DNA from: a virus
IMG/VR virus record: IMGVR_UViG_3300045988_161245
Span: 32,001-96,000 of that record
Reading direction: 5' to 3' (one strand)
Length of the DNA stretch: 64,000 nucleotides
The notes beneath the pieces were generated by a model. It had not been told where the DNA came from, made no database searches, and worked only from the letters and a program-made list of their open reading frames with translations. This document shows, piece by piece, positions 4,950-54,589 of this stretch (within the stretch, counting starts at the first letter, position 1; every line of letters starts with the position of its first letter). The position numbers and the translations under genes are program-made.

Positions 4950-5114
4950 TGAACAAAATATCCATATCGAGAATTGAAATCCTCACGGATATTTCTTACT
5001 GCTTCATTGTATATGCTTTCATGGTTATTTAACTCACTACTCGCAGATCCTTGTATACTCCACAGTCGTAAATTCCCGACTAAGCCATCGGTACATACTT
5101 ACTTTTGCTTTTAT
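4950..5114 (-). ncRNA. candidate TnpB guide-RNA (omega/reRNA) scaffold
   Basis: A 165-nt noncoding gap lies immediately 3' of the tnpB stop. It is GC-richer than its surroundings and has stems such as AGTCG...CGACT. TnpB omega RNAs are known to derive from the 3' end or right end of the element. Confidence 0.35.
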
Positions 5115-6287
5115 TTATGCAATTTCGTAAGCTATCGCATCTCTTAAATTAAGTGCTGCATTATAATCTCTATCAGCATAATATCCACATTCGCAAATAT
5201 ATTCTCTGTCAGAAAGTTTTAAATCTTTCTTAATACATCCACATTCGTGACATAATTTGCTTGATGGAAACCACCGATCCACAATTCTTAATTCGATTCC
5301 TAATTCTTTGCATTTTTCAATAAGCTTTAATCTGAACTCATAAAACTTCTGTGATGCAACTGCTTTAGAGAGATGTTTATTCTTCATCATTCCTTTTATA
5401 TTAAGATCTTCAATAGTTATATAAGATGGTTTGGTTTTCACTATCTCTGTTATTGTTTTATTAATATAATCGGTTCGAATATTAGTTATTCTTTGATAAA
5501 TTTTCTGTACCTTTAAAACTTGTTTTTGAATATTCTGTTTAGTAGCTGCTCCTTTATTGTTTTTGTTTCGTTGTTTATAACTTTCGTATTTTCTCGAAAG
5601 ACAACGTTGTTCTCTTTTTAATTTCTTTTTTAGCTTTTTAAATTTTTTTGTTTTATTAATATTTTTCTTTACAGTACCATCGCTTATTACTGCAAATTCC
5701 TTTATACCTAGATCAATTCCTAAACCAAAATCATTTAAAATAGCTTTATCTTGTTCTGGAACATCAACTAAAACAGAAATATAATATCTTTCTGCTTTCA
5801 TAGATATAGTTCCACTTTTAATTACTAATCCTGATTTAGTTGTTGGAATATAACCATTTTCTTTAAGCCTGACCCAACCTAATGTAGGAACTTTTATACG
5901 ATGCCTTTCACACCATATAACCGACTTACTATCGGTTTTTACAAAATACATTTTTACATCAGATTTGTTTTTCTTTTTAAATTTGGGGAATTTACTTTGA
6001 TTTTTGAAGAATCGTTTAAAAGATTTGTCTGCATTCATTATGCTTTGCTTGACAGATTTGGAGCTTACTTCTTTTATCCATAGATAATTAGGATTTTCTT
6101 TTAGGAATACATTATTTAACCATTTAGAAAAATCCATTCCTGAAACAAATATTTTTTCTTTTTTATACATCTCTATATTATGTGCAATATAGAAATTATA
6201 AATGTATCTACATGTCCCAATAGTTTTATTTATTATTTGTTTCTGCTCCAATGTCGGATTTATCTCCGTTTTGAAGCTTTTTAGCAT
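5115..6287 (-). CDS. tnpB: TnpB-like RNA-guided endonuclease
   Basis: 390 aa with [11 protein letters not shown] (RuvC-I D), YITIEDLNIKGM (E), CHECGCIKK...YICECGYYADRDYNAALN (Zn finger plus RuvC-III D). Confidence 0.9.
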   Translation of the reverse strand: MLKSFKTEINPTLEQKQIINKTIGTCRYIYNFYIAHNIEMYKKEKIFVSGMDFSKWLNNVFLKENPNYLWIKEVSSKSVKQSIMNADKSFKRFFKNQSKFPKFKKKNKSDVKMYFVKTDSKSVIWCERHRIKVPTLGWVRLKENGYIPTTKSGLVIKSGTISMKAERYYISVLVDVPEQDKAILNDFGLGIDLGIKEFAVISDGTVKKNINKTKKFKKLKKKLKREQRCLSRKYESYKQRNKNNKGAATKQNIQKQVLKVQKIYQRITNIRTDYINKTITEIVKTKPSYITIEDLNIKGMMKNKHLSKAVASQKFYEFRLKLIEKCKELGIELRIVDRWFPSSKLCHECGCIKKDLKLSDREYICECGYYADRDYNAALNLRDAIAYEIA

Positions 6288-38494: not shown

Positions 38495-38639
38495 AGTATT
38501 CTCCTCTGGTATTTTTACCAGTCGCTTTTTACTGGGAAGGCATAACCCATCATTCACTGGATATAATCCTAGTGCGTGTTATTCAATTGTGAAACAATAA
38601 TCCTGTGATTGAACCATAGACCTATAGCCTGGATCATTA

Positions 38640-38672
38640 GAAAAGCCTGTACATTACACCCTGTACAGGCTT
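38640..38672 (-). terminator. intrinsic terminator
   Basis: Perfect 10-bp stem AAGCCTGTAC / GTACAGGCTT, followed on the minus strand by TTTTCT. Confidence 0.65.
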
Positions 38673-38704
38673 GACATTTAGTGACTAATGGTGTAAACTA
38701 AAAG

Positions 38705-38848
38705 CTACTTAAAGCTACCACAGAGAACACTTTTTACAGCGTCCTCGTAGCAACTTTTTAGTTCGTTCGTGTCGCAAGAACACAGAAATCGTCCCTGGAA
38801 GAACAATTCGTAGTGTTCTTTGCACCGAACTACATCAATAGTTACCAT
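38705..38848 (-). CDS. hypothetical Cys-rich small protein (47 aa)
   Basis: GGAGGTGAAAC SD followed by MVTIDVVRCKEHYELFFQGRFLCSCDTNELKSCYEDAVKSVLCGSFK. Confidence 0.55.
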   Translation of the reverse strand: MVTIDVVRCKEHYELFFQGRFLCSCDTNELKSCYEDAVKSVLCGSFK

Positions 38849-39244
38849 AGTTTCACCTCCTCTCTGAAAATAAGTTGGTGAAACAATTATGTATTATGTA
38901 TTTATAAACCGCTTTTCCAGTTTCGAGCGAATCCAGAACGAATTACTGGTAGCGATGGACAGAATCAGCCTCTTACCGCATGACTTAGGTGTAATCCAAC
39001 ACCTGTAGCTTATTGTAACCGCTGGTCTTTTGGCGGTAGGTCTGCTACAACCCTTCACGCACTTTTACTGGTGGCGCTAATACTGGCGAGAAATCCACAA
39101 GCCAGAACCTTTTATGAGGAAAACAGAAAGACTTCACGCTATCGCTAGACAACTTGCAATTTGTAAGAACTGCTATTCAATCAATCATCATTCACTTTTC
39201 AAAGTACGGAATGCTGAATGCCTAAATCATCAGCGTGGGTTGAT

Positions 39245-39276
39245 TGTTACCGCCGGATTAGTCCGGCAACTTTTTT
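39245..39276 (+). terminator. intrinsic terminator
   Basis: Stem GCCGGA-ttag-TCCGGC followed by TTTTTT. Confidence 0.7.
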
Positions 39277-39306
39277 GGGACACTCAACAGACATTTGTCT
39301 GTTGTT

Positions 39307-39353
39307 GGTGTTACTATATCACATACGTTTGTATGTGTCAACACCTTTTTTTT
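39307..39353 (+). terminator. intrinsic terminator (compound hairpin)
   Basis: Outer stem GGTGTT...AACACC encloses ACATAC-gttt-GTATGT and is followed by a T8 run. Confidence 0.65.
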
Positions 39354-39461
39354 AAACTTTTTAAAACTTTTTTCTGGTAGGTATTCCAGATACATACACT
39401 TGAACATTCACAACTGAAAAGTCGTTGTTGCTGTATCTCAATTGCTTGACGCAAGTATAAC

Positions 39462-39536
39462 ACTTTGTACAAAGTATTTTCAAGTCGGAATATTGTACAA
39501 AGTGTAGCTTGCTTTTCTGTTTACTTTGTACAAAGT
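39462..39536. promoter_or_regulatory. three operator-like palindromes (ACTTTGTACAAAGT) overlapping candidate divergent promoters
   Basis: Perfect 14-bp palindromes at 39462-39475 and 39523-39536, and a 12/14 copy at 39490-39503. TATAAT at 39538-39543 is on the plus strand. TTGAAA-17nt-TTATAC on the minus strand spans the first site. Confidence 0.55.
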
Positions 39537-39709
39537 GTATAATTACATACTTTTTTTATTCGCCTTTATTAGAAGGAATATTTCAAAAATACAGAAGTAA
39601 AAACCATGGAAAGTATTGATTTTACTAGCGTTGTGGGCTGTCGTATGGTATAATTCTTGTGAAATTATTTCTATATAATGCAAAAAAATGAAAGTAGGTT
39701 GATATATAA

Positions 39710-39919
39710 ATGTCAGATAATAATGAAAATAAATTCAATAAAGTAAAATATGATAATGATTATATAAAAAATAACTATGACCAGGTACGTTTTACAGTCA
39801 AAAAGGGTAAAAAAGAAGAATTGAAAGAACATTGTAGCAAGTTTGGTTATAAAAGTGTGAATGATTTTATAAATAAAGCTGTAAATGAGAAAATAGCTAG
39901 GGATTTAGGTGAAATGTAA
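39710..39919 (+). CDS. ribbon-helix-helix (Arc/CopG-like) protein
   Basis: VRFTVKKGKKEELKEHCSKFGYKSVNDFINKAVNEKI fits an RHH strand-helix-helix layout. First rightward gene after the operators. Confidence 0.5.
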   Translation: MSDNNENKFNKVKYDNDYIKNNYDQVRFTVKKGKKEELKEHCSKFGYKSVNDFINKAVNEKIARDLGEM

Positions 39920-40611
39920 ATACAATTTAGTGTATTATAGCTATTGCGTGTGTAAATGTATAATTGTTTGAAAACGTCCGTGTATGAAAGACATTTTGTA
40001 AGCAGTGAGTTGAGCTGCGGTATAGGCATATTGCACAAAAGTATTGGATTTAGTGGGATTGTTGGCTGTGGTGTGGTGTGGATTGCATGGTGAAAGTGTC
40101 TTTTTGAGGGTAATTTTTAGGGAATCGGGGAAAGACATTGTGCAAAGTGCATAAAATGGTGTATAGGAATACTATGTCATGTAGTTTTGAAAACTATATA
40201 AGGTAGTTTAGTATTCCATATGTGATAGTTTATAGTATACATGATGTACTATAGTGTACTAGTTAAATTGTTTTGAAAATGATATAACATAGTTTTCGAT
40301 ACTGTATTATATGGTATTACTGCAATGTCTGGTAAAAAATTTCATTTTATCCATAGCCATTAAACCCTTGTAAATACTGGATTTCTACGACTTTTTACCC
40401 TATTTTTTTGAAAAATTCCTACTATATACCAGTTTAAAGCCCTTGCCAGACAACGCCAGAATGTCTTGTATAGTAATTTCTATATTTTCTATCATAGAAG
40501 TATAAAAGCATGTCTACTAATATCTATTAGAAGTCATGGAAAATAAGGATGGGGGTACTTTCCATCCTGGAGCAGATCCAGGATCGGCTCAGCAGCATAA
40601 GCAGGTCAATC

Positions 40612-41275
40612 TCCACACTGACTGGAAAATCCCTCTTCACAATAAATCCCTACTAACTCACGCTCTCCATTACTCTCTCATCGTATCGACCACCGTATCG
40701 TAAAATCCCAGTTTTTTCCTATCATCTTTCACTCCCACTCCACAAAAATCACACCAAAAATCACACAAAAATCACACACCAATCTCGCTCAACTCAAATA
40801 AATTCAAGCCATCAATCGATACCGTTCAACCATCCAAGTTCCTCCACAACCATCGCTCCCCACTCACCACACCAAAATCTCAATGTTTTCCTGGCATAAC
40901 TAGCAATTTTTCACCACTCTCAAAATATTCATTCGATAAAATCCCAATAAATCCCTACTCAAAACCCATTTTACTCATCACACAAATCGTATTCTTTCCT
41001 ATATAAATACTGTTATCTCTCGGTATCAAAAAAACACAACTTAATTCACACAATTTAAACTAAAAAATTTAAAAGCAGCCATCCAATCTGGACGTGCTGC
41101 TTTATTTTTTAACTCTCCACTCACTCAAATCCAGTTTTAACACATCTATAGTCCACACCTATTCTAAATCAAAATTCTACCATAAAAATCGTCCAAACAC
41201 CTCTACCCTACCAATTTACCACTAACCACTATTTCATCAAAAATTACCATCAAAAACTCATCTAAAGTACCGTAA
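40612..41275 (+). other. G-depleted, C/A-rich ORF-free tract with internal direct repeats
   Basis: By eye, roughly one G per 15-20 nt on the plus strand. No ORFs on either strand. CAATAAATCCCTACT occurs at 40640-40654 and 40945-40959, and AAAAATCACAC occurs three times at 40744-40777. Confidence 0.8.
41072..41110 (+). terminator. intrinsic terminator inside the G-poor tract
   Basis: Stem AAAGCAGC / GCTGCTTT followed by ATTTTTT. Confidence 0.6.
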
Positions 41276-41347
41276 TGAGGGGTATGTTTTAGTCTCAGCT
41301 GCACTCACTACCCAGATCACCATCCAGGTCTAATATATAGCTATAAT

Positions 41348-41446
41348 TTTTTCGAATCTAACTCAAAGTTAACTCAAATCTAACTTGAATTTAATTCAAA
41401 GTTAATTCAAAGTTAACTCGAATCTAACTTAAAATTACATTAAACT
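41348..41446. repeat. array of about 8-9 degenerate 11-bp tandem repeats (TAACTCAAAGT type)
   Basis: Units are TAACTCAAAGT, TAACTCAAATC, TAACTTGAATT, TAATTCAAAGT, TAATTCAAAGT, TAACTCGAATC, TAACTTAAAAT. TCGAATCTAACT recurs 65 bp apart. Confidence 0.85.
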
Positions 41447-41619
41447 AATATACTTCTCATTTCGCATTAAATTTAATTCCTAAGAATAAAATAAAATTCC
41501 ATTTAGAAGTCTATATTGATCCATCTATCTCACTTTCACTATCACTATTTTTAGATTAAATACAAATCTAAACAAGAAAAAAATAATATAGTATATATCA
41601 GTTAAGGAGAATTTTAAAT

Positions 41620-44533: not shown

Positions 44534-47317
44534 GTGGTGATTATCATTAGTGAATTTGGAATTAAAATTAAAAATATCAGTGCTGGTACATTATATGATG
44601 TTAATTTAGGCACAAGAGATTATTTCTCATACACTGAAGCAATGCTTAATAATAGTTTATTTTCTGCTTTTCTTATAAAGAATGGTCTTAATGTATATAA
44701 AGGTGAATCTACTAGAGATATTATTTGCTTAGACTTTGACTTTGGTACAAGATCTTATGAGGATGAGCATAAACGAATTGAGCAGTTGTATAAAAATTCT
44801 GATGGCGAATTAAAGGAACGTCTTAAATACACTTTGGAGAAAGTTGAGAATAACAAGGATCTCTATGATGAGAAAAAGCGTGAGCAGATCAGAGATAAAT
44901 TCTACAACGAAGGTGTAGATGTTACTTATAAAACTAAGAATAAAGATGGCACTATTAAAAGTGAAGAAACAATTCACTATGAGATGTTGTTTCGAACCAG
45001 TGCTAAAGCAAAGCTTGGACAGGTTATCTTTATAAACTCTGAACTTTATGAAGTGGCTTACGAATGGTTAACTATCGGACTTGGAAAACTAATGACAGAT
45101 GACAATGCAAAAATTGTTGAGATGTCTGCCTATGCTCCACTTACTACATCTACCATCGTTGGAACTAAGTATATTCCTGTAGAGGATATTCTCATTCTTA
45201 GGGACCAAGATTCATTTTTTAAGACAATGGCTAACATTGTTCGTGCAGAAGATTACGTGGACTCTAAGGGTCGAATTTGTAAGAAATGTGTCGTAGACAA
45301 GAAGGTTACCGAAGTCAAGAATACACTTTGGGATGGCATGGGACTGATTGAAGCTGATTATTTTAAAGACTGCAGAAATGCTTATAATCCGGATTGGACT
45401 GTTAAGATTAATGGCATGGCTTTAATGAGACATCATTTATTTAAGATGTGTGGTTTTAAATCTCATATACAGTTATTTTTTAAGGATTGGTGTGAGAAAA
45501 CCGGTAATGATTATGAAACTTACCAGGTCCAAGACATGTTTGGTCATTGGCATTATTTGAAAGACATTAAGATTATCACTACTGACAACGCCATCAAATG
45601 GAAAAAATTTAAGGATTTAATGGGCGGCTCATTAGAATCTGCATATGAGTATTGGTGCAATAAGGTAAATGAAGATGGCAGCGTGTTCGGTATTGTAAAA
45701 ACCGATCATCCTAGTAAACTTGGTGAATATCAACAGCTCAGTTATCAGATGGTTAATACTCTCCCATGTACCAAAGATGATGTAAGGGATATTGCAAGCA
45801 CCAGTATTGAATATGTGGAGTTACTGAAGCAGGATAATAATGAGTTTGAGAAATTCTTAAGAAAAAATGCTAATGAGGTAAACCACTATGAGATGATGGC
45901 TGATTTATATGATCACAACCATGAATTTGGCAATAGTACATTTTTCAGACATGAGAAGTCAAAAATTATTTCCGCATATGTACATAAGCTTAGAAAAGGC
46001 AAGATTGTTGTGAACGGAGATAATTTAACTGTTTGTGGTAATCCATACGCTCTTCTACTCTATTCTGTTGGTGAGGATTTTACAAAAGATCCTACCCTTC
46101 AACCAGAATCTGGAACTATTCAATGTTATACAACAAGATTTAAACATGATGAATTTCTATGTGCATTTCGCAATCCGCATAATTCCCCAAATAATATTTG
46201 TTATTTTCACAATGTTTACAGTGATGAAATGGAAAAATACTTTGAATTTTCTTCAAATATTGCTGCAGTGAACTGTATTTGTACTGATGTACAACCACGT
46301 TTAAATGGTTGCGATTTTGACAGTGACTTCGTTTTAGCCACAAATCAGCCTACTATGGTAAGATGTGCAGCTTATTGCTATAAACACTACCCTACTATTG
46401 TTAATGATTTAAAAGAAAGTGGCGTGGTTTATAAAAGTAACAAATCAGAATATGCACGTATGGATAATACATTTTCTAAATCAAGAATCGGAATTGGATA
46501 TTCTAGTAATTTGGCACAGCTTGCCATGACTTATTACTGGAGTGAATTACAGGGTGATAGTCCAGATCCAAAAAGACTTGATGAGCTATCAGATAATTTC
46601 GTAATTCTAAGCGTTCTTGCTCAAGTAATAATCGATAGCTGTAAAAGACTCTATGAAATTGATGGAATTAAAGAGATTGATCGTATTAGCAAACTTCCAT
46701 GTATGACAATGAAAAAAGAAGTAATTGACAAAAATGGAAATAAAAGAATGAAAAAGTGTGACTTCCCTGAATTTATGAAATACACAAGAGAAATTGCTGT
46801 TACTAAGGATGGTAAAGAGCTTCCACAAGAAGATATTGAGGAATCCAAGAACAAATTAAAAGGACGAATCAATAAAGATCTTATATGCCCAATGAACTGG
46901 TTGCAGGAATGGTTGGATAAAATCCAGGGAGCAAGCACTAAGGTTACTACTCCTACTGAGAATTTCTTTATTAAGATGACAGGTGAAGGAAATTATAATC
47001 AAATGACCAAAATTATGACTACCATAGAAGAATATGATTCATATATAAAAAATATGCAATTATTATGTAGTGATAACGAAACATACTATGATTTAATTGC
47101 ACAAAAAGCGGCAGACATGGTGAAGGAAATTTCAAAAATGAAAATTAGAAATGTTGTCACTATTAATCGTCTTATTGAAATCAGTTTAGGAATAAGTACA
47201 GAAAAAGGTAGATCGAGTTATAGAAAAAGTAATCCACAAAAATATGCTAGAAAAACACTTAATCTTTTGTATAAATATAGCAAAGAAAAATTTTTAAATA
47301 ACTTTGTTTGCGAATAA
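44534..47317 (+). CDS. single-subunit two-barrel RNA polymerase, YonO / RdRP-like
   Basis: 927 aa. LNGCDFDSDFVLATNQ (DNA 46313-46327) matches the DxDxD metal site, cf. NADFDGD of beta-prime and DbDGD of cellular RdRPs. AFRNPHNSPNN upstream matches the R-x-P-x-x-H element. The start is probably downstream of the track GTG (see findings). Confidence 0.6.
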   Translation: MVIIISEFGIKIKNISAGTLYDVNLGTRDYFSYTEAMLNNSLFSAFLIKNGLNVYKGESTRDIICLDFDFGTRSYEDEHKRIEQLYKNSDGELKERLKYTLEKVENNKDLYDEKKREQIRDKFYNEGVDVTYKTKNKDGTIKSEETIHYEMLFRTSAKAKLGQVIFINSELYEVAYEWLTIGLGKLMTDDNAKIVEMSAYAPLTTSTIVGTKYIPVEDILILRDQDSFFKTMANIVRAEDYVDSKGRICKKCVVDKKVTEVKNTLWDGMGLIEADYFKDCRNAYNPDWTVKINGMALMRHHLFKMCGFKSHIQLFFKDWCEKTGNDYETYQVQDMFGHWHYLKDIKIITTDNAIKWKKFKDLMGGSLESAYEYWCNKVNEDGSVFGIVKTDHPSKLGEYQQLSYQMVNTLPCTKDDVRDIASTSIEYVELLKQDNNEFEKFLRKNANEVNHYEMMADLYDHNHEFGNSTFFRHEKSKIISAYVHKLRKGKIVVNGDNLTVCGNPYALLLYSVGEDFTKDPTLQPESGTIQCYTTRFKHDEFLCAFRNPHNSPNNICYFHNVYSDEMEKYFEFSSNIAAVNCICTDVQPRLNGCDFDSDFVLATNQPTMVRCAAYCYKHYPTIVNDLKESGVVYKSNKSEYARMDNTFSKSRIGIGYSSNLAQLAMTYYWSELQGDSPDPKRLDELSDNFVILSVLAQVIIDSCKRLYEIDGIKEIDRISKLPCMTMKKEVIDKNGNKRMKKCDFPEFMKYTREIAVTKDGKELPQEDIEESKNKLKGRINKDLICPMNWLQEWLDKIQGASTKVTTPTENFFIKMTGEGNYNQMTKIMTTIEEYDSYIKNMQLLCSDNETYYDLIAQKAADMVKEISKMKIRNVVTINRLIEISLGISTEKGRSSYRKSNPQKYARKTLNLLYKYSKEKFLNNFVCE

Positions 47318-47596: not shown

Positions 47597-47670
47597 CGCA
47601 GGATAGAGAAGTTTGGTATCTCGTCAGATTCATGCTCTGAAGATCGACAGTTCAAATCTGTCTCCTGCAA
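47597..47670 (+). tRNA. tRNA with anticodon CAT (Met / initiator-like / possible Ile2)
   Basis: Hand-folded 74-nt cloverleaf: acceptor CGCAGGA/TCCTGCA (C1-A72 mismatch), D stem GAGA/TCTC, anticodon arm TCAGA-TTCATGC-TCTGA, T arm GACAG-TTCAAAT-CTGTC. Confidence 0.8.
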
Positions 47671-51923: not shown

Positions 51924-52076
51924 TAAATATAAAATCGTTATTTTATGTGATGTGATTTGCCGTGAGGCAATTACTTTTTTCGCTCATTATTATAAAATTT
52001 TCTGAAGAGGTGATGGTTAGTGCTGTCATCTCACATAAGATAACGAAATATTTTGATAAAAGGAAGTGATGAAGAA

Positions 52077-53033
52077 ATGGCAGTTGAACGAAGTAAACCT
52101 ATATTATTATATGACGCAGAAAAAGCTAAACAGGTTAATCCGGAAACATTAAGATTGTTTCAAAAATATCAAATTGATATGTCAATTAGAGACCTATCAG
52201 AAAAGACAATTAGGGGTTATAATTCTGATTTAATGCAGTGGTTCATTTATATGTATAATAACCAATTTAATCTATCTGTTCTTGAAGCAAAAGAAGAAGA
52301 TCTTGAAGAATATTATTTCTGGAGAAAACAGCAAGGTAATAATGTTAATCGTCAGAAACGTGTCATGTCTTCTATTTCCGCTTTCTATAAATTTCTTCGT
52401 AAGAAAAAACTCATTACAGAATCCCCAATGGAATTTATTGATAGACCAAAACAAGGACAACCTGTTGTTGTACAAACTTATTTAAAAAAGGAAGAAGTGC
52501 AATTTATGAGAGAAAAACTTTCTGAATATGGTGATGTTCAGTTACAGGTTTATGCTTTTTTATCTCTCACTACAATGGCCAGAGTTAATGCAATTGCTCA
52601 TTTGAAATGGGATCAAATCAATATGGAAGAACGTATTTGCTCTGATGTGCTTGAAAAAGAAGGTAAAATTGTAGAGCTTTCATTTAGTGAAGAAACTCGC
52701 GATTATATGAATGAATTACGTAAATATAGAGAAGACAATAATATAGATGATTATGGTTGGGTGTTCAAAACGGCTTATACAAATGAGAAACAATGTGTAA
52801 GTAATGATACTCTAAATGAATGGTGTAAAAAAATTGGTAATATGATTGGGCATCCTACATTACATTGTCATGATTGGAGACATAGCTATGCTAGTCTGCT
52901 TAAGGAAAATGGGGCAAGTTTAGAAGATGTTTCAGAAATGCTTAATCATGCAGGAACTGATGTTACTAAGAAATATTACATAAAGGTAGATCATTCTAAG
53001 GTTAGAAAAATTAAGGATTCAATCAAAATTTAA
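52077..53033 (+). CDS. tyrosine recombinase (XerC/D-phage integrase family)
   Basis: N-terminal SAM-like core-binding region, ARVNAIAHLKWDQI (Arg box), HCHDWRHSYASLL...LNHAGTDVTKKYY (HxxR...Y). ATG 52077 follows AAGGAAGTGA. Confidence 0.85.
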   Translation: MAVERSKPILLYDAEKAKQVNPETLRLFQKYQIDMSIRDLSEKTIRGYNSDLMQWFIYMYNNQFNLSVLEAKEEDLEEYYFWRKQQGNNVNRQKRVMSSISAFYKFLRKKKLITESPMEFIDRPKQGQPVVVQTYLKKEEVQFMREKLSEYGDVQLQVYAFLSLTTMARVNAIAHLKWDQINMEERICSDVLEKEGKIVELSFSEETRDYMNELRKYREDNNIDDYGWVFKTAYTNEKQCVSNDTLNEWCKKIGNMIGHPTLHCHDWRHSYASLLKENGASLEDVSEMLNHAGTDVTKKYYIKVDHSKVRKIKDSIKI

Positions 53034-54202: not shown

Positions 54203-54293
54203 GGCAGGTATAGCTTAATTGGTAAAGCGTCATATTCAAATTCTGGAAAACATACAAATGAAGACTCCAGGTTCGAGTCCTGGTGCACTGCCC
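54203..54293 (+). tRNA. aberrant tRNA-like element, about 90 nt (class-II length; anticodon uncertain, CAA most consistent)
   Basis: Clean D arm GCTT-AATTGGTA-AAGC and T arm CCAGG-TTCGAGT-CCTGG. The acceptor pairs only GGCAG/CTGCC, with extra or bulged bases. The anticodon stem TCATA/TCTGG has a mismatch. The variable region is 20 nt. Confidence 0.45.
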
Positions 54294-54329
54294 TACAACT
54301 CAATTTTTATTGAGTATAAAATTTTATTT

Positions 54330-54411
54330 GGATGGATAGCGAAGTGGTTAAACGCTCCTGACTGTAAATCAGGCGGCTCTGCCTTCGAAGGTTCGAATCC
54401 TTCTCCATCCA
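54330..54411 (+). tRNA. tRNA-Tyr (GTA)
   Basis: Acceptor GGATGGA/TCCATCC, anticodon arm CCTGA-CTGTAAA-TCAGG, 13-nt variable arm, T arm GAAGG-TTCGAAT-CCTTC. Confidence 0.85.
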
Positions 54412-54509
54412 CTAAATAGGACTACTGTCCTATTCTATTATTCTTCTCTTTTCTTTGTATTTTTCATTTTCATGATTATTTCTCCAAGCTGGGCTTCGGT
54501 CCAGCGTCT

Positions 54510-54583
54510 TGGGATGTAGCTCAGTTTGGTAGAGCGCCTGATTTGGGGTCAGGAGGTCCAGGGTTCAAGTCCCTGTATTCCAA
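54510..54583 (+). tRNA. tRNA-Pro (TGG)
   Basis: Acceptor TGGGATG/TATTCCA (two G-U pairs), D arm GCTC-AGTTTGGTA-GAGC, anticodon arm CCTGA-TTTGGGG-TCAGG with G37, T arm CAGGG-TTCAAGT-CCCTG. Confidence 0.8.
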
Positions 54584-54589
54584 CTTTCC

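What the first reader, a model, noticed from the sequence alone, without database searches (positions are those of the whole stretch)
40546..41275. About 650-nt tract almost devoid of G on the plus strand, with direct repeats and its own terminator
After two adjacent hairpins (GGATGG..CCATCC at 40547-40567 and CCTGGA..TCCAGG at 40566-40582), the plus strand becomes C/A/T only. By my hand count this is roughly one G per 15-20 nt for about 650 nt. Neither strand has an ORF. The tract contains exact 15-mers CAATAAATCCCTACT (40640-40654, 40945-40959), three tandem AAAAATCACAC units (40744-40777), recurring AAAATCCC, and an internal intrinsic terminator (41072-41110). Such extreme strand asymmetry is not explained by coding. 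If transcribed rightward, the RNA would be C-rich, G-poor and unstructured, the classical signature of Rho-loading (rut) sites but many times longer. Other options are a protein-binding repeat field, a replication or packaging element, or a region under selection to avoid particular motifs.
Basis: seen in the sequence. Interest (0 to 1): 0.7.

Follow-up and report, generated by a model that had tools for sequence, protein, structure and literature searches.

The report
G-free spacer beside phage packaging site
A 0.7-kb non-coding stretch of an SPbeta-like prophage is kept almost free of G on one strand; related Bacillus phages carry a similarly composed block right at their mapped DNA-packaging cut, so it is probably a transcription-blocking spacer guarding that site rather than a gene.

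Summary
Window 40626-41266 has 31 G in 641 nt, with C about 31%. It is the G-poorest 650-nt window of the 64 kb. It has no ORF over 55 aa and no Rfam match. As plus-strand RNA it is almost unstructured.

It is one half of a mirror pair. A C-poor block (about 39650-40349) lies to its left, across a conserved core (40350-40600).

In 18 of 19 near-relatives G stays near 7%. One tract allele is only 71% identical yet equally G-poor, so composition is conserved more than sequence.

The phage is SPbeta-like (YonV homolog, YonO-like RNA polymerase, TerL 40% identical). In 20 Bacillus Spbetavirus loci the published 250-bp pac block is flanked in the same way. The G-poor block there starts exactly at the mapped cut. 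A reported SPbeta sRNA (ncr1052) runs outward across the mirror block.

Best reading, at moderate confidence: this is a composition-selected spacer flanking the packaging region. Outward transcripts across it would be C-rich and unstructured, so it would act as a Rho-loading barrier. The conserved bidirectional terminator at 41072-41110 would reinforce it.

The pac location and the Rho dependence are inferred for this phage, not shown.

Rivals are terminase binding, end-processing (telomere-like) roles, a mutational footprint and a regulatory RNA.

The parts
39460..39538 (.). Three copies of the palindrome ACACTTTGTACAAAGTGT. They look like operators and overlap a perfect -10 (TATAAT 39538-39543) that points rightward.
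   Evidence: D3, I8, I18; sequence.
39710..39919 (+). 69-aa Arc/ribbon-helix-helix-like gene. It is preceded by TGGTATAAT (39646-39654). No plus-strand terminator-like site follows it before 41072, so its transcript would run into the tract.
   Evidence: ORF. (phrog_13890 at 2.5e-16; Arc-like repressor phrog_582 at 1.8e-3). (no plus-strand terminator between 39305 and 41072). (sequence).
39920..40349 (.). Non-coding part of the mirror block. It is C-poor and G/T-rich on the plus strand (C 2-6 per 50 nt). The low C starts near 39650, inside the RHH gene. The minus-strand RNA here is the least structured on that strand.
   Evidence: composition. (minus-strand MFE -10.7 to -15.9 per 200 nt at 39701-39901, against a mean of -33.6).
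40350..40625 (.). Core between the two skewed blocks. It is better conserved among relatives (27-41 of 50 columns invariant). It contains the G cluster GGATGGGGGTAC and the two hairpins at 40547-40582. It is the candidate position of the packaging cut, by analogy only.
   Evidence: conservation; hairpins not conserved; GGGGTAC at 40552.
40626..41071 (+). G-poor tract, first part. The stretch 40600-40950 evolves fast (71% identity in the L113/L117 allele) but stays G-poor. The stretch 40940-41070 is nearly invariant. It holds AAATCCC (5 copies in the whole tract), the three tandem AAAAATCACAC units and both copies of the 15-mer.
41072..41110 (.). Conserved bidirectional intrinsic terminator inside the tract. 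The stem is AAAGCAGC/GCTGCTTT, with T-runs on both strands.
41111..41270 (+). G-poor tract, second part (3 G in 160 nt). It is well conserved among relatives.
41271..41350 (+). Right boundary. It contains ATGAGGGGTAT (a second GGGGTAY) and an invariant TATAAT at 41342-41347 pointing rightward with no good -35. This may be the first promoter of the right arm.
41351..41449 (.). About nine tandem 11-bp repeats (AACTCAAAGTT-like). Copy number differs between relatives by multiples of 11. They are adjacent to the tract; whether they belong to the same element is not established.
   Evidence: (D1).

Best explanation
What it is. The tract is the right-hand half of a two-part, mirror-skewed non-coding region that separates the two gene arms of an SPbeta-like temperate phage. 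By analogy with Bacillus Spbetaviruses, this region surrounds the DNA-packaging start (pac, or genome opening point).

What is selected. Selection acts on composition, not on sequence. On each side of the core, the strand that reads 5'->3' away from the core is kept almost free of G and rich in C.

How it would work. Any RNA made outward across a block is C-rich and cannot fold. That is the substrate requirement of termination factor Rho. In this window, rightward transcripts from the Arc-like gene at 39710 meet no terminator before the tract. The tract, together with the conserved intrinsic terminator at 41072-41110, would stop them. That would keep them out of the right arm, which carries YonV, the YonO-like RNA polymerase, terminase and portal. 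It would also keep the packaging core insulated from the flanking promoters.

Shown:
- the extreme composition, the lack of coding and the lack of plus-strand RNA structure;
- the mirror partner to the left;
- conservation of composition beyond conservation of sequence;
- the same layout at the mapped Spbetavirus cut;
- an outward G-poor sRNA reported in SPbeta.

Inferred:
- that pac lies in the core in this phage;
- that the tract is transcribed;
- that Rho acts on it.

My own split: about 0.55 for 'pac-flanking, composition-selected spacer' and about 0.3 for the Rho-barrier step.
For: 1. The tract is extreme and non-coding.
2. Plus-strand RNA at 40601-40801 folds at -2.5 to -5.6 kcal/mol per 200 nt, against a window mean of -29.4 (sd 10.4). 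The mirror block is the least structured on the minus strand.
3. G stays at 7.0-7.8% of the aligned 730 nt in 18 of 19 close relatives, and is 13% in one (L134). Among the ten aligned contigs the tract is 71-98% identical. This includes an allele only 71% identical with 24 G in 468 nt. C stays at 25-31%, against 18% for the window.
4. The phage is SPbeta-like. The YonV homolog is 42% identical. TerL is 40.5% identical over 93% of its length. The 927-aa protein carries DFDSD where YonO has DNDGD.
5. Kohm et al. (bioRxiv 10.1101/2021.11.22.469490) map the Spbetavirus opening point between yonP and yonR and give the 250-bp fragment. I located it in 20 loci. The 450 nt to its left have 8-10% C and 23-29% G. 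The block itself is balanced. The 300 nt after the cut motif AATCGAAG have 3-6% G in most loci (up to about 11%) and mostly 26-31% C.
6. The linear BUCT082 record ends exactly at that cut, and the G-poor block begins there.
7. Spbetavirus G-poor blocks are only about 45% identical pairwise, against about 76% for the pac block, yet keep their composition.
8. SPbeta sRNA ncr1052 (Irnov 2010, PMC2965217) maps to L001 6111-6293 on the minus strand. It starts at the edge of the pac block and runs outward as a roughly 7% G, 30% C RNA. No intrinsic terminator follows it. The coordinate mapping was checked against two independent landmarks.
9. No plus-strand terminator-like site lies between the Arc-like gene and 41072.
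10. Third-codon-position skew of the adjacent genes is not extreme, so the skew is confined to the non-coding blocks.
Against: - No DNA similarity links this region to any Spbetavirus region. Local alignments are no better than shuffles. The analogy is therefore one of architecture and composition only.
- Gene order also differs: here YonV and the late genes share one arm.
- No virion termini or read-start data exist for this phage. Metagenome contig ends give no signal.
- I found no convincing conserved sigma-A promoter pointing into the tract from the core.
- An intrinsic terminator already sits in the tract, so a Rho barrier may be redundant.
- Lachnospiraceae-type relatives with 53-58% identical YonV show no such tract near yonV.
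- Rut-site maps for B. subtilis could not be consulted at this locus.
- Whether the host has Rho is unknown.
Confidence: 0.4

Rival explanations
1. DNA-level packaging element. The tract is bound or wrapped by the small terminase or an accessory protein during pac recognition. The skew would come from arrays of asymmetric binding motifs placed in opposite orientation on the two sides of the cut.
For: - Short motifs are enriched beyond dinucleotide composition: AAATCCC 5 copies against 0.3 expected, and TCACAC 5 against 1.0. The repeated 15-mer is rare by chance.
- AA/TT shows a periodicity of about 11.25 bp through 40780-41340 (p<=0.025). The strongest such signal of any 758-nt window in the 64 kb is at 40251.
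- The block touches the mapped cut in Spbetaviruses.
Against: - The motifs are not kept in the 71%-identical allele, although the terminase genes of that relative are about 99% identical.
- Spbetavirus G-poor blocks are about 45% identical and show no significant periodicity.
- By my recollection, known pac sites are far shorter than 0.5-0.7 kb per flank. SPP1 pac lies inside the TerS gene.
Confidence: 0.18
2. End-processing element with telomere-like polarity. After cutting or injection, 5'->3' resection would leave 3' tails. On both sides those tails are the G/T-rich, C-free strands. They cannot fold, and RecA-type recombinases are known to prefer such sequence. This would favour annealing, recircularisation or recombination-dependent replication.
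For: - The polarity is symmetrical about the cut. The strand whose 3' end lies at the cut is G/T-rich on both sides.
- Two GenBank Spbetavirus records end at the two edges of the 250-bp block. This fits both blocks being subterminal in virion DNA.
- Selection on composition rather than sequence fits this idea.
- RecA's preference for GT-rich DNA is from my own knowledge and was not tested here.
Against: - The B. subtilis Chi sequence AGCGG is not enriched in the correctly oriented strands of 16 Spbetavirus loci.
- Kohm et al. interpret the data as headful packaging in one direction. In that case the G-poor block lies on the non-packaged side of the first cut.
- The idea does not explain the high C content of the other strand better than the RNA models do.
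Confidence: 0.1
3. No function. The skew would be a mutational footprint, as in mitochondrial DNA. The strand exposed as single-stranded DNA next to the genome end would accumulate C->T and A->G changes. Unconstrained non-coding DNA would then drift to A+C-rich on one strand and G+T-rich on the other.
For: - The composition (A35 C31 T28 G6%) resembles the mitochondrial light strand; that resemblance is from my own knowledge.
- The AT skew has the predicted sign on both blocks.
- G gains and losses are balanced among alleles, as expected at equilibrium.
Against: - The block edges are sharp and there is no gradient with distance from the core.
- Third codon positions of genes 50-300 nt away do not share the skew.
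- A<->C transversions are common among alleles. Transitions are only 43-52% of differences, against about 80% in the nearby genes.
- The phage spends most of its time as double-stranded prophage DNA.
Confidence: 0.1
4. A free-standing regulatory or sponge RNA. This would be a long, unstructured, C-rich transcript whose UCCC/CCCC motifs pair with G-rich ribosome-binding sites, as C-rich sRNAs of Firmicutes do, or which titrates an RNA-binding protein such as Rho itself.
For: - There are five AAAUCCC motifs plus CUCCC, CCCC and ACCC runs.
- The island 40940-41110, which ends in a terminator, is nearly invariant.
- SPbeta ncr1052 is detected as a discrete 183-nt RNA in lysogens.
Against: - No Rfam family matches.
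- There is no canonical promoter in front of the conserved island.
- Motif positions are not conserved between alleles or between phage groups.
- The tract continues past the terminator.
Confidence: 0.07
5. Replication origin. Inward transcripts across the blocks would be G-rich and could form stable R-loops that prime replication. The neighbouring 11-bp repeats and AT-rich stretch would act as iterons and unwinding element.
For: - The cumulative GC skew of the window reaches its minimum at about 41000-41500.
- Tandem 11-bp repeats lie at 41351-41449, followed by DNA of about 20% GC.
- A P-loop protein (YonV) is encoded just downstream.
Against: - There is no DnaA-box cluster.
- The one leftward promoter-like site to the right of the tract is not conserved.
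- The large-scale skew follows gene orientation.
- Nothing links Spbetavirus replication to the pac region in the papers read.
Confidence: 0.06

Closest known systems
Spbetavirus pac / genome-opening region between yonP and yonR (Fink and Zahler 1982; Kohm et al., bioRxiv 10.1101/2021.11.22.469490)
   Same: Both are non-coding gaps between the two gene arms of a roughly 125-kb temperate phage that has a YonV homolog, a YonO-type polymerase and a related TerL. In both, a C-poor block, a core and a G-poor block follow in that order relative to yonV. The blocks are 0.3-0.7 kb long and vary in sequence while keeping their composition.
   Different: There is no detectable sequence similarity. The cut is mapped only in the Bacillus phages. 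Here the tract is longer and more extreme, carries an internal terminator, and leads into an arm that holds both YonV and the late genes. The skewed flanks themselves are not mentioned in that paper ('skew' has 0 occurrences).
Rho utilisation (rut) sites of Rho-dependent terminators, such as lambda tR1 and the rho leader
   Same: B. subtilis Rut sites also follow the C>G rule and are more abundant in prophages (PMC12350095).
   Different: Mapped Rut peaks average about 100 nt. This tract is 6-7 times longer, comes as a mirror pair, and contains an intrinsic terminator. Rho dependence is untested.
Phage T7 subterminal repeat region SRL, next to the terminal repeat
   Same: Both are non-coding DNA just inside a genome end, with short repeats (CCTAAAG in T7) and C>G on the strand reading inward. 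T7 181-240 has C24 and G5.
   Different: The T7 region is only about 180 nt and its skew is mild. T7's right-end region is not a mirror image. That the T7 repeats have no established function is my recollection.
SPbeta sRNA ncr1052 / ncr44 (Irnov et al. 2010)
   Same: It is an RNA transcribed outward from the edge of the pac block across a skewed block. It is G-poor and has no intrinsic terminator.
   Different: It lies on the other side of the core, towards yonP. It is 183 nt long. Its function is unknown. No homologous sequence exists here.

Membership tests
Rho-dependent terminator / rut site | C-rich, G-poor RNA segment (C>G) of at least 70-80 nt | tested here: met
   C201 and G35 in 651 nt.
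Rho-dependent terminator / rut site | RNA free of stable secondary structure | tested here: met
   MFE is -2.5 to -5.6 kcal/mol per 200 nt at 40601-40801, against a window mean of -29.4.
Rho-dependent terminator / rut site | Lies in a transcribed but untranslated stretch | tested here: inconclusive
   No ORF over 55 aa. A rightward gene lies upstream with no terminator before 41072. No expression data are available.
Rho-dependent terminator / rut site | Termination depends on Rho (rho mutant or bicyclomycin) | not testable with these tools
   Needs experiment. B. subtilis Rut tables were not available for the SPbeta locus.
pac region of SPbeta-like phages | Contains or abuts the terminase cut mapped on virion DNA | not testable with these tools
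   No virion reads for this phage. In Spbetaviruses the analogous block starts at the mapped cut.
pac region of SPbeta-like phages | Sequence similarity to the 250-bp Spbetavirus pac fragment | tested here: not met
   The SPbeta pac block used as a blastn query matched only Spbetavirus loci, not this phage. No blastn match of this region in the phage collection. Local alignments to the flanking blocks are at shuffle level.
pac region of SPbeta-like phages | Phage has the SPbeta-type packaging enzyme and gene set | tested here: met
   TerL 40.5% identical over 93%. YonV homolog. YonO-like DFDSD protein.
pac region of SPbeta-like phages | Non-coding gap between gene arms with a C-poor block, core and G-poor block | tested here: met
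Intrinsic terminator (41072-41110 only) | GC-rich stem-loop followed by a T-run | tested here: met
   Stem AAAGCAGC/GCTGCTTT with T-runs on both strands. Conserved in relatives, with changes only in the loop or internal loop.
Known RNA families (Rfam 15) | Covariance-model match | tested here: not met
   Nothing at gathering score. Only chance-level hits at E<=1.
Replication origin | Cluster of DnaA boxes or initiator repeats with an AT-rich unwinding element | tested here: inconclusive
   No DnaA-box cluster. 11-bp repeats and AT-rich DNA lie next to the tract, not within it.
Chi-protected DNA end | Correctly oriented Chi sites near the end | tested here: not met
   AGCGG occurs 0-2 times per locus, near expectation, in 16 Spbetavirus loci. 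Chi of this phage's host is unknown.

The most novel reading that the evidence does not exclude
Mirror-image G-free and C-free blocks would be an undescribed, purely compositional class of genome-end element in SPbeta-like phages. Their polarity is telomere-like: the 3'-ending strands are G/T-rich. They would act on DNA ends during packaging, resection or recircularisation, or would form a very large two-way Rho trap around the packaging site. Their function would be encoded in strand composition rather than in any motif.
Probability: 0.15. Interest if true: 0.8.

Novelty: new variant of a known kind. Interest (0 to 1): 0.55.

Why it matters
SPbeta is a long-standing model temperate phage, yet its packaging signal is barely characterised. 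The papers I read do not mention the skewed flanks.

If one strand is kept nearly G-free for 0.3-0.7 kb on each side of the packaging site in two distant host groups, then strand composition itself may be the functional signal. That would give a simple sequence signature for finding packaging regions and genome ends in large uncultivated prophages.

It would also give a concrete, genetically tractable test in B. subtilis. One could ask whether Rho, or end-processing enzymes, read such tracts. One could also ask how a prophage keeps transcription from crossing between its arms.

Tried and rejected
- DNA similarity of the region to known phages, near and distant: no match.
- blastn and tblastn of the region and its small flanking genes against 120 fetched loci: nothing.
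- Homology between the tract and the Spbetavirus blocks: by eye several strings looked alike (ATCGTAAAA, CCCTACTC, CCCTCTTC), and 8-mer sharing looked raised. Local alignment scores equal Markov-shuffle expectation. Single motifs are at chance level in the window. Rejected.
- Hairpins 40547-40582 as a conserved RNA element: broken in half of the relatives, with no compensation.
- Known RNA family: none.
- DnaA boxes: chance level.
- Chi sites: not enriched.
- YonO promoter: the published start site lies upstream of yonK, not in the pac region.
- Genome termini from contig ends: contig ends scatter or fall at the 11-bp repeats.
- G-poor stretches upstream of yonV in more distant phages such as L050: these are minus-strand coding DNA, not the same thing.
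- Lachnospiraceae-type loci with 53-58% identical YonV: no such tract within 6-7 kb.
- Rut-site tables for B. subtilis: the held supplement does not cover the locus.
- Function of the YonV homolog and the 927-aa protein from PDB, Pfam and NCBIfam: no informative hits.
- GGGGTAY bracketing the tract and a 14-of-18 match, counted by eye, to the Spbetavirus pac-block edge: post hoc and not significant after multiple testing. Kept only as a lead.
Full report
**1.

- Window 40546-41275 has A255 C222 G56 T197. Window 40620-41270 has 35 G in 651 nt.
- Between 40626 and 41266 there is one G per 20.7 nt. Seven of those 31 G lie in a terminator stem.
- No other 650-nt window of the 64 kb has so few G. 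The minimum is 33, at 40626; the mean is 92 and the sd 28.
- An exact 15-nt repeat arose in only 1 of 300 Markov simulations of the tract.
- ORFs touching the tract are at most 55 aa. No Rfam family matches.
- The terminator at 41072-41110 has T-runs on both strands, so it is bidirectional.

**2. The tract is half of a mirror pair**

- Immediately to its left, 39500-40545 has C105 and G201.
- At 50-nt resolution, C stays at 2-6 per 50 nt from about 39650 to 40349. A balanced and better-conserved core follows at 40350-40600. The G-poor tract then begins.
- Folding makes the symmetry physical. As RNA, the plus strand of 40601-40801 has an MFE of only -2.5 to -5.6 kcal/mol per 200 nt, against a window mean of -29.4 (sd 10.4).
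- The minus strand of 39701-39901 is the least structured on that strand.
- So whichever strand reads 5'->3' away from the core is G-free and cannot fold.

**3. Genomic context**

- Genes run leftward up to 38557 and rightward from 41620.
- The right arm encodes the following:
  - a YonV homolog, 42% identical to SPbeta YonV;
  - a 927-aa protein with DFDSD where YonO has DNDGD;
  - PhoH and an exonuclease;
  - a terminase large subunit, 40.5% identical over 93% of its length to Spbetavirus TerL;
  - a portal protein.
- The window matches a 122.8-kb IMG/VR prophage contig.
- The nearest YonV relatives come from Lachnospiraceae-type gut bacteria. The host itself was not identified.

**4. Close relatives show that composition is what is conserved**

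- The 115-aa protein just right of the tract is encoded in many gut metagenome contigs.
- In ten such contigs the right arm from 41620 is 99-100% invariant. The tract is 71-98% identical, and everything further left is mosaic.
- The 40583-41070 segment always has 24-34 G in about 470-490 nt. This includes the L113/L117 allele, which is only 71% identical and nearly unalignable over 40600-40940.
- With eight further contigs and one viral contig, G is 7.0-7.8% of the aligned 730 nt in 18 of 19 relatives. One differs.
- Only 18-30% of allele differences in the tract involve G, against 44% in the left arm.
- C stays at 25-31%, against 18% for the whole window.
- The enriched motifs are not kept in the divergent allele.
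- The two hairpins are broken without compensation in half of the relatives.
- A nearly invariant island spans 40940-41110 and includes the terminator.

**5. The informative comparison is with Bacillus Spbetaviruses**

- Many Spbetavirus loci show a C-poor block followed by a G-poor block about 1-1.8 kb upstream of yonV.
- Kohm et al. report that the packaging start and genome opening point lie between yonP and yonR. They give a roughly 250-bp 'pac' fragment ending in ...GAATCGAAG, with packaging running towards yonP.
- I located that fragment in SPbeta (L001 6273-6523) and in 19 other loci. The layout is the same in all of them:
  - the 450 nt to the left have 8-10% C and 23-29% G;
  - the 250-bp block is balanced;
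  - the 300 nt to the right of the cut have 3-6% G in most loci (up to about 11%) and mostly 26-31% C.
- The linear GenBank record of BUCT082 ends exactly at the cut, with 3, 7 and 5 G in the first three hundreds. BUCT083 starts at the other edge of the block.
- Among nine representative loci, median pairwise identity is 76% for the pac block, 65% for the left block and only 45% for the G-poor block. The composition of the G-poor block is still kept.
- The paper does not mention skew.

**6. Evidence for outward transcription**

- Irnov et al. list an sRNA, ncr1052 (= ncr44), of 183 nt. It lies between yonR and yonP on the yonP strand.
- I checked the coordinate mapping against the YonO start site and against a second sRNA. 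With it, ncr1052 maps to L001 6111-6293 on the minus strand.
- The RNA starts at the left edge of the pac block, downstream of a promoter-like ATTACA-17-TATATT. It runs outward through the mirror block as an RNA of about 7% G and 30% C. No intrinsic terminator follows. The strong yonP promoter lies further on.
- In the window, an Arc-like gene at 39710-39919 points rightward. It has operator-like palindromes and good -10 elements upstream.
- No plus-strand terminator-like site lies between that gene and 41072. Its transcript should therefore enter the tract.

**7. Interpretation**

- The best-supported statement is that the tract is a composition-selected, non-coding spacer flanking the packaging region of an SPbeta-like phage.
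- For mechanism I favour an RNA-level barrier. Outward transcripts would be C-rich and unstructured, which is what Rho needs. B. subtilis Rut sites also follow the C>G rule and are more abundant in prophages. The conserved bidirectional terminator would add a second stop.
- This would keep transcription of the regulatory gene out of the right arm and insulate the packaging core.
- That pac lies in the core here, that the tract is transcribed, and that Rho acts on it are all inferences.

**8. Rival explanations**

- *Terminase or other protein binding.* Motif enrichment and an 11.25-bp AA/TT periodicity support it. The lack of motif conservation weakens it.
- *Role at DNA ends (unstructured G/T-rich 3' tails).* This fits the symmetry. 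B. subtilis Chi is not enriched.
- *Mitochondria-like mutational footprint.* This fits the base composition. It does not fit the sharp block edges, the ordinary third-codon skew of neighbouring genes or the many transversions.
- *Regulatory RNA, or an R-loop origin.* Neither is excluded, but I found little support for either.

**9. Limits**

- There is no sequence homology to the Spbetavirus region.
- Gene order differs between the two phage groups.
- Lachnospiraceae-type loci with 53-58% identical YonV lack such a tract near yonV.
- No termini or expression data exist for this phage.

**10. Known analogues**

- T7's subterminal repeat region shows only a mild skew and is not mirrored.
- SPP1 pac lies inside a gene.

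Noticed in passing
window 4996-6287 (-): A TnpB/OrfB_IS605-type gene (5115-6287) has a RAGATH-18 RNA match (4996-5066, 64.8 bits) directly downstream on the same strand. This looks like a transposon-associated nuclease with its guide-type RNA inside the prophage.
   Followed up: no
window 41351-41449: About nine tandem 11-bp repeats (AACTCAAAGTT-like) lie between the tract and the first right-arm gene. Close relatives differ by deletions or insertions of about one to three repeat units. This could be an operator, iteron or centromere-like array.
   Followed up: partly
window 39460-39919: Three copies of the palindrome ACACTTTGTACAAAGTGT overlap a perfect -10 and lie upstream of a 69-aa Arc/RHH-like gene. 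This is probably an autoregulated regulator of the phage.
   Followed up: partly
window 38560-39450: About 0.9 kb has no convincing ORF apart from a 47-aa gene with a strong ribosome-binding site at 38705-38848 (-). GC is about 40% against 32% for the window. Two plus-strand terminator-like hairpins lie at 39252-39304. There is no Rfam match. It may hold unannotated RNA genes.
   Followed up: no
window 44534-47317 (+): The 927-aa protein has no Pfam, NCBIfam or PDB match. It carries CDFDSD at residue 594, resembling YonO DNDGD and the NADFDGD motif of cellular RNA polymerase. It is conserved downstream of YonV homologs in several loci and is probably a YonO-like single-chain RNA polymerase.
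   Followed up: partly
window 41620 onward versus left of about 40950: There is a sharp change in conservation among ten metagenome relatives. The right arm is 99-100% invariant. The tract is intermediate, and the left arm is mosaic with many indels. The skewed region sits at a module boundary.
   Followed up: partly
window 40552 and 41279: GGGGTAY occurs only four times in 64 kb on both strands. Two copies, in the same orientation, bracket the G-poor tract. The Spbetavirus 250-bp pac block begins with GCTA(T/G)GGGTACAT. This is post hoc and not statistically secure.
   Followed up: partly
L071-L073 (BUCT083 ON107264 start, BUCT082 MZ969646 end); L001 6273-6523: Two Spbetavirus GenBank records end at the two opposite edges of the 250-bp 'pac' block, which the source paper describes as having sharp coverage. 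This fits a short direct terminal repeat at least as well as a single pac cut.
   Followed up: partly
window 52053-53033 (+), 47597-47670, 54204-54584: A tyrosine-integrase-like ORF lies within the right arm, with tRNA genes nearby: Met, Tyr, Pro and one weaker Rfam tRNA hit.
   Followed up: no
L020 2721-4201: In some phi3T-like prophages a winged-helix-like ORF and a tubulin/FtsZ-like 370-aa ORF (judged from the sequence by eye) lie immediately before the C-poor block. This would be a TubR/TubZ-type partition pair next to the packaging region.
   Followed up: no
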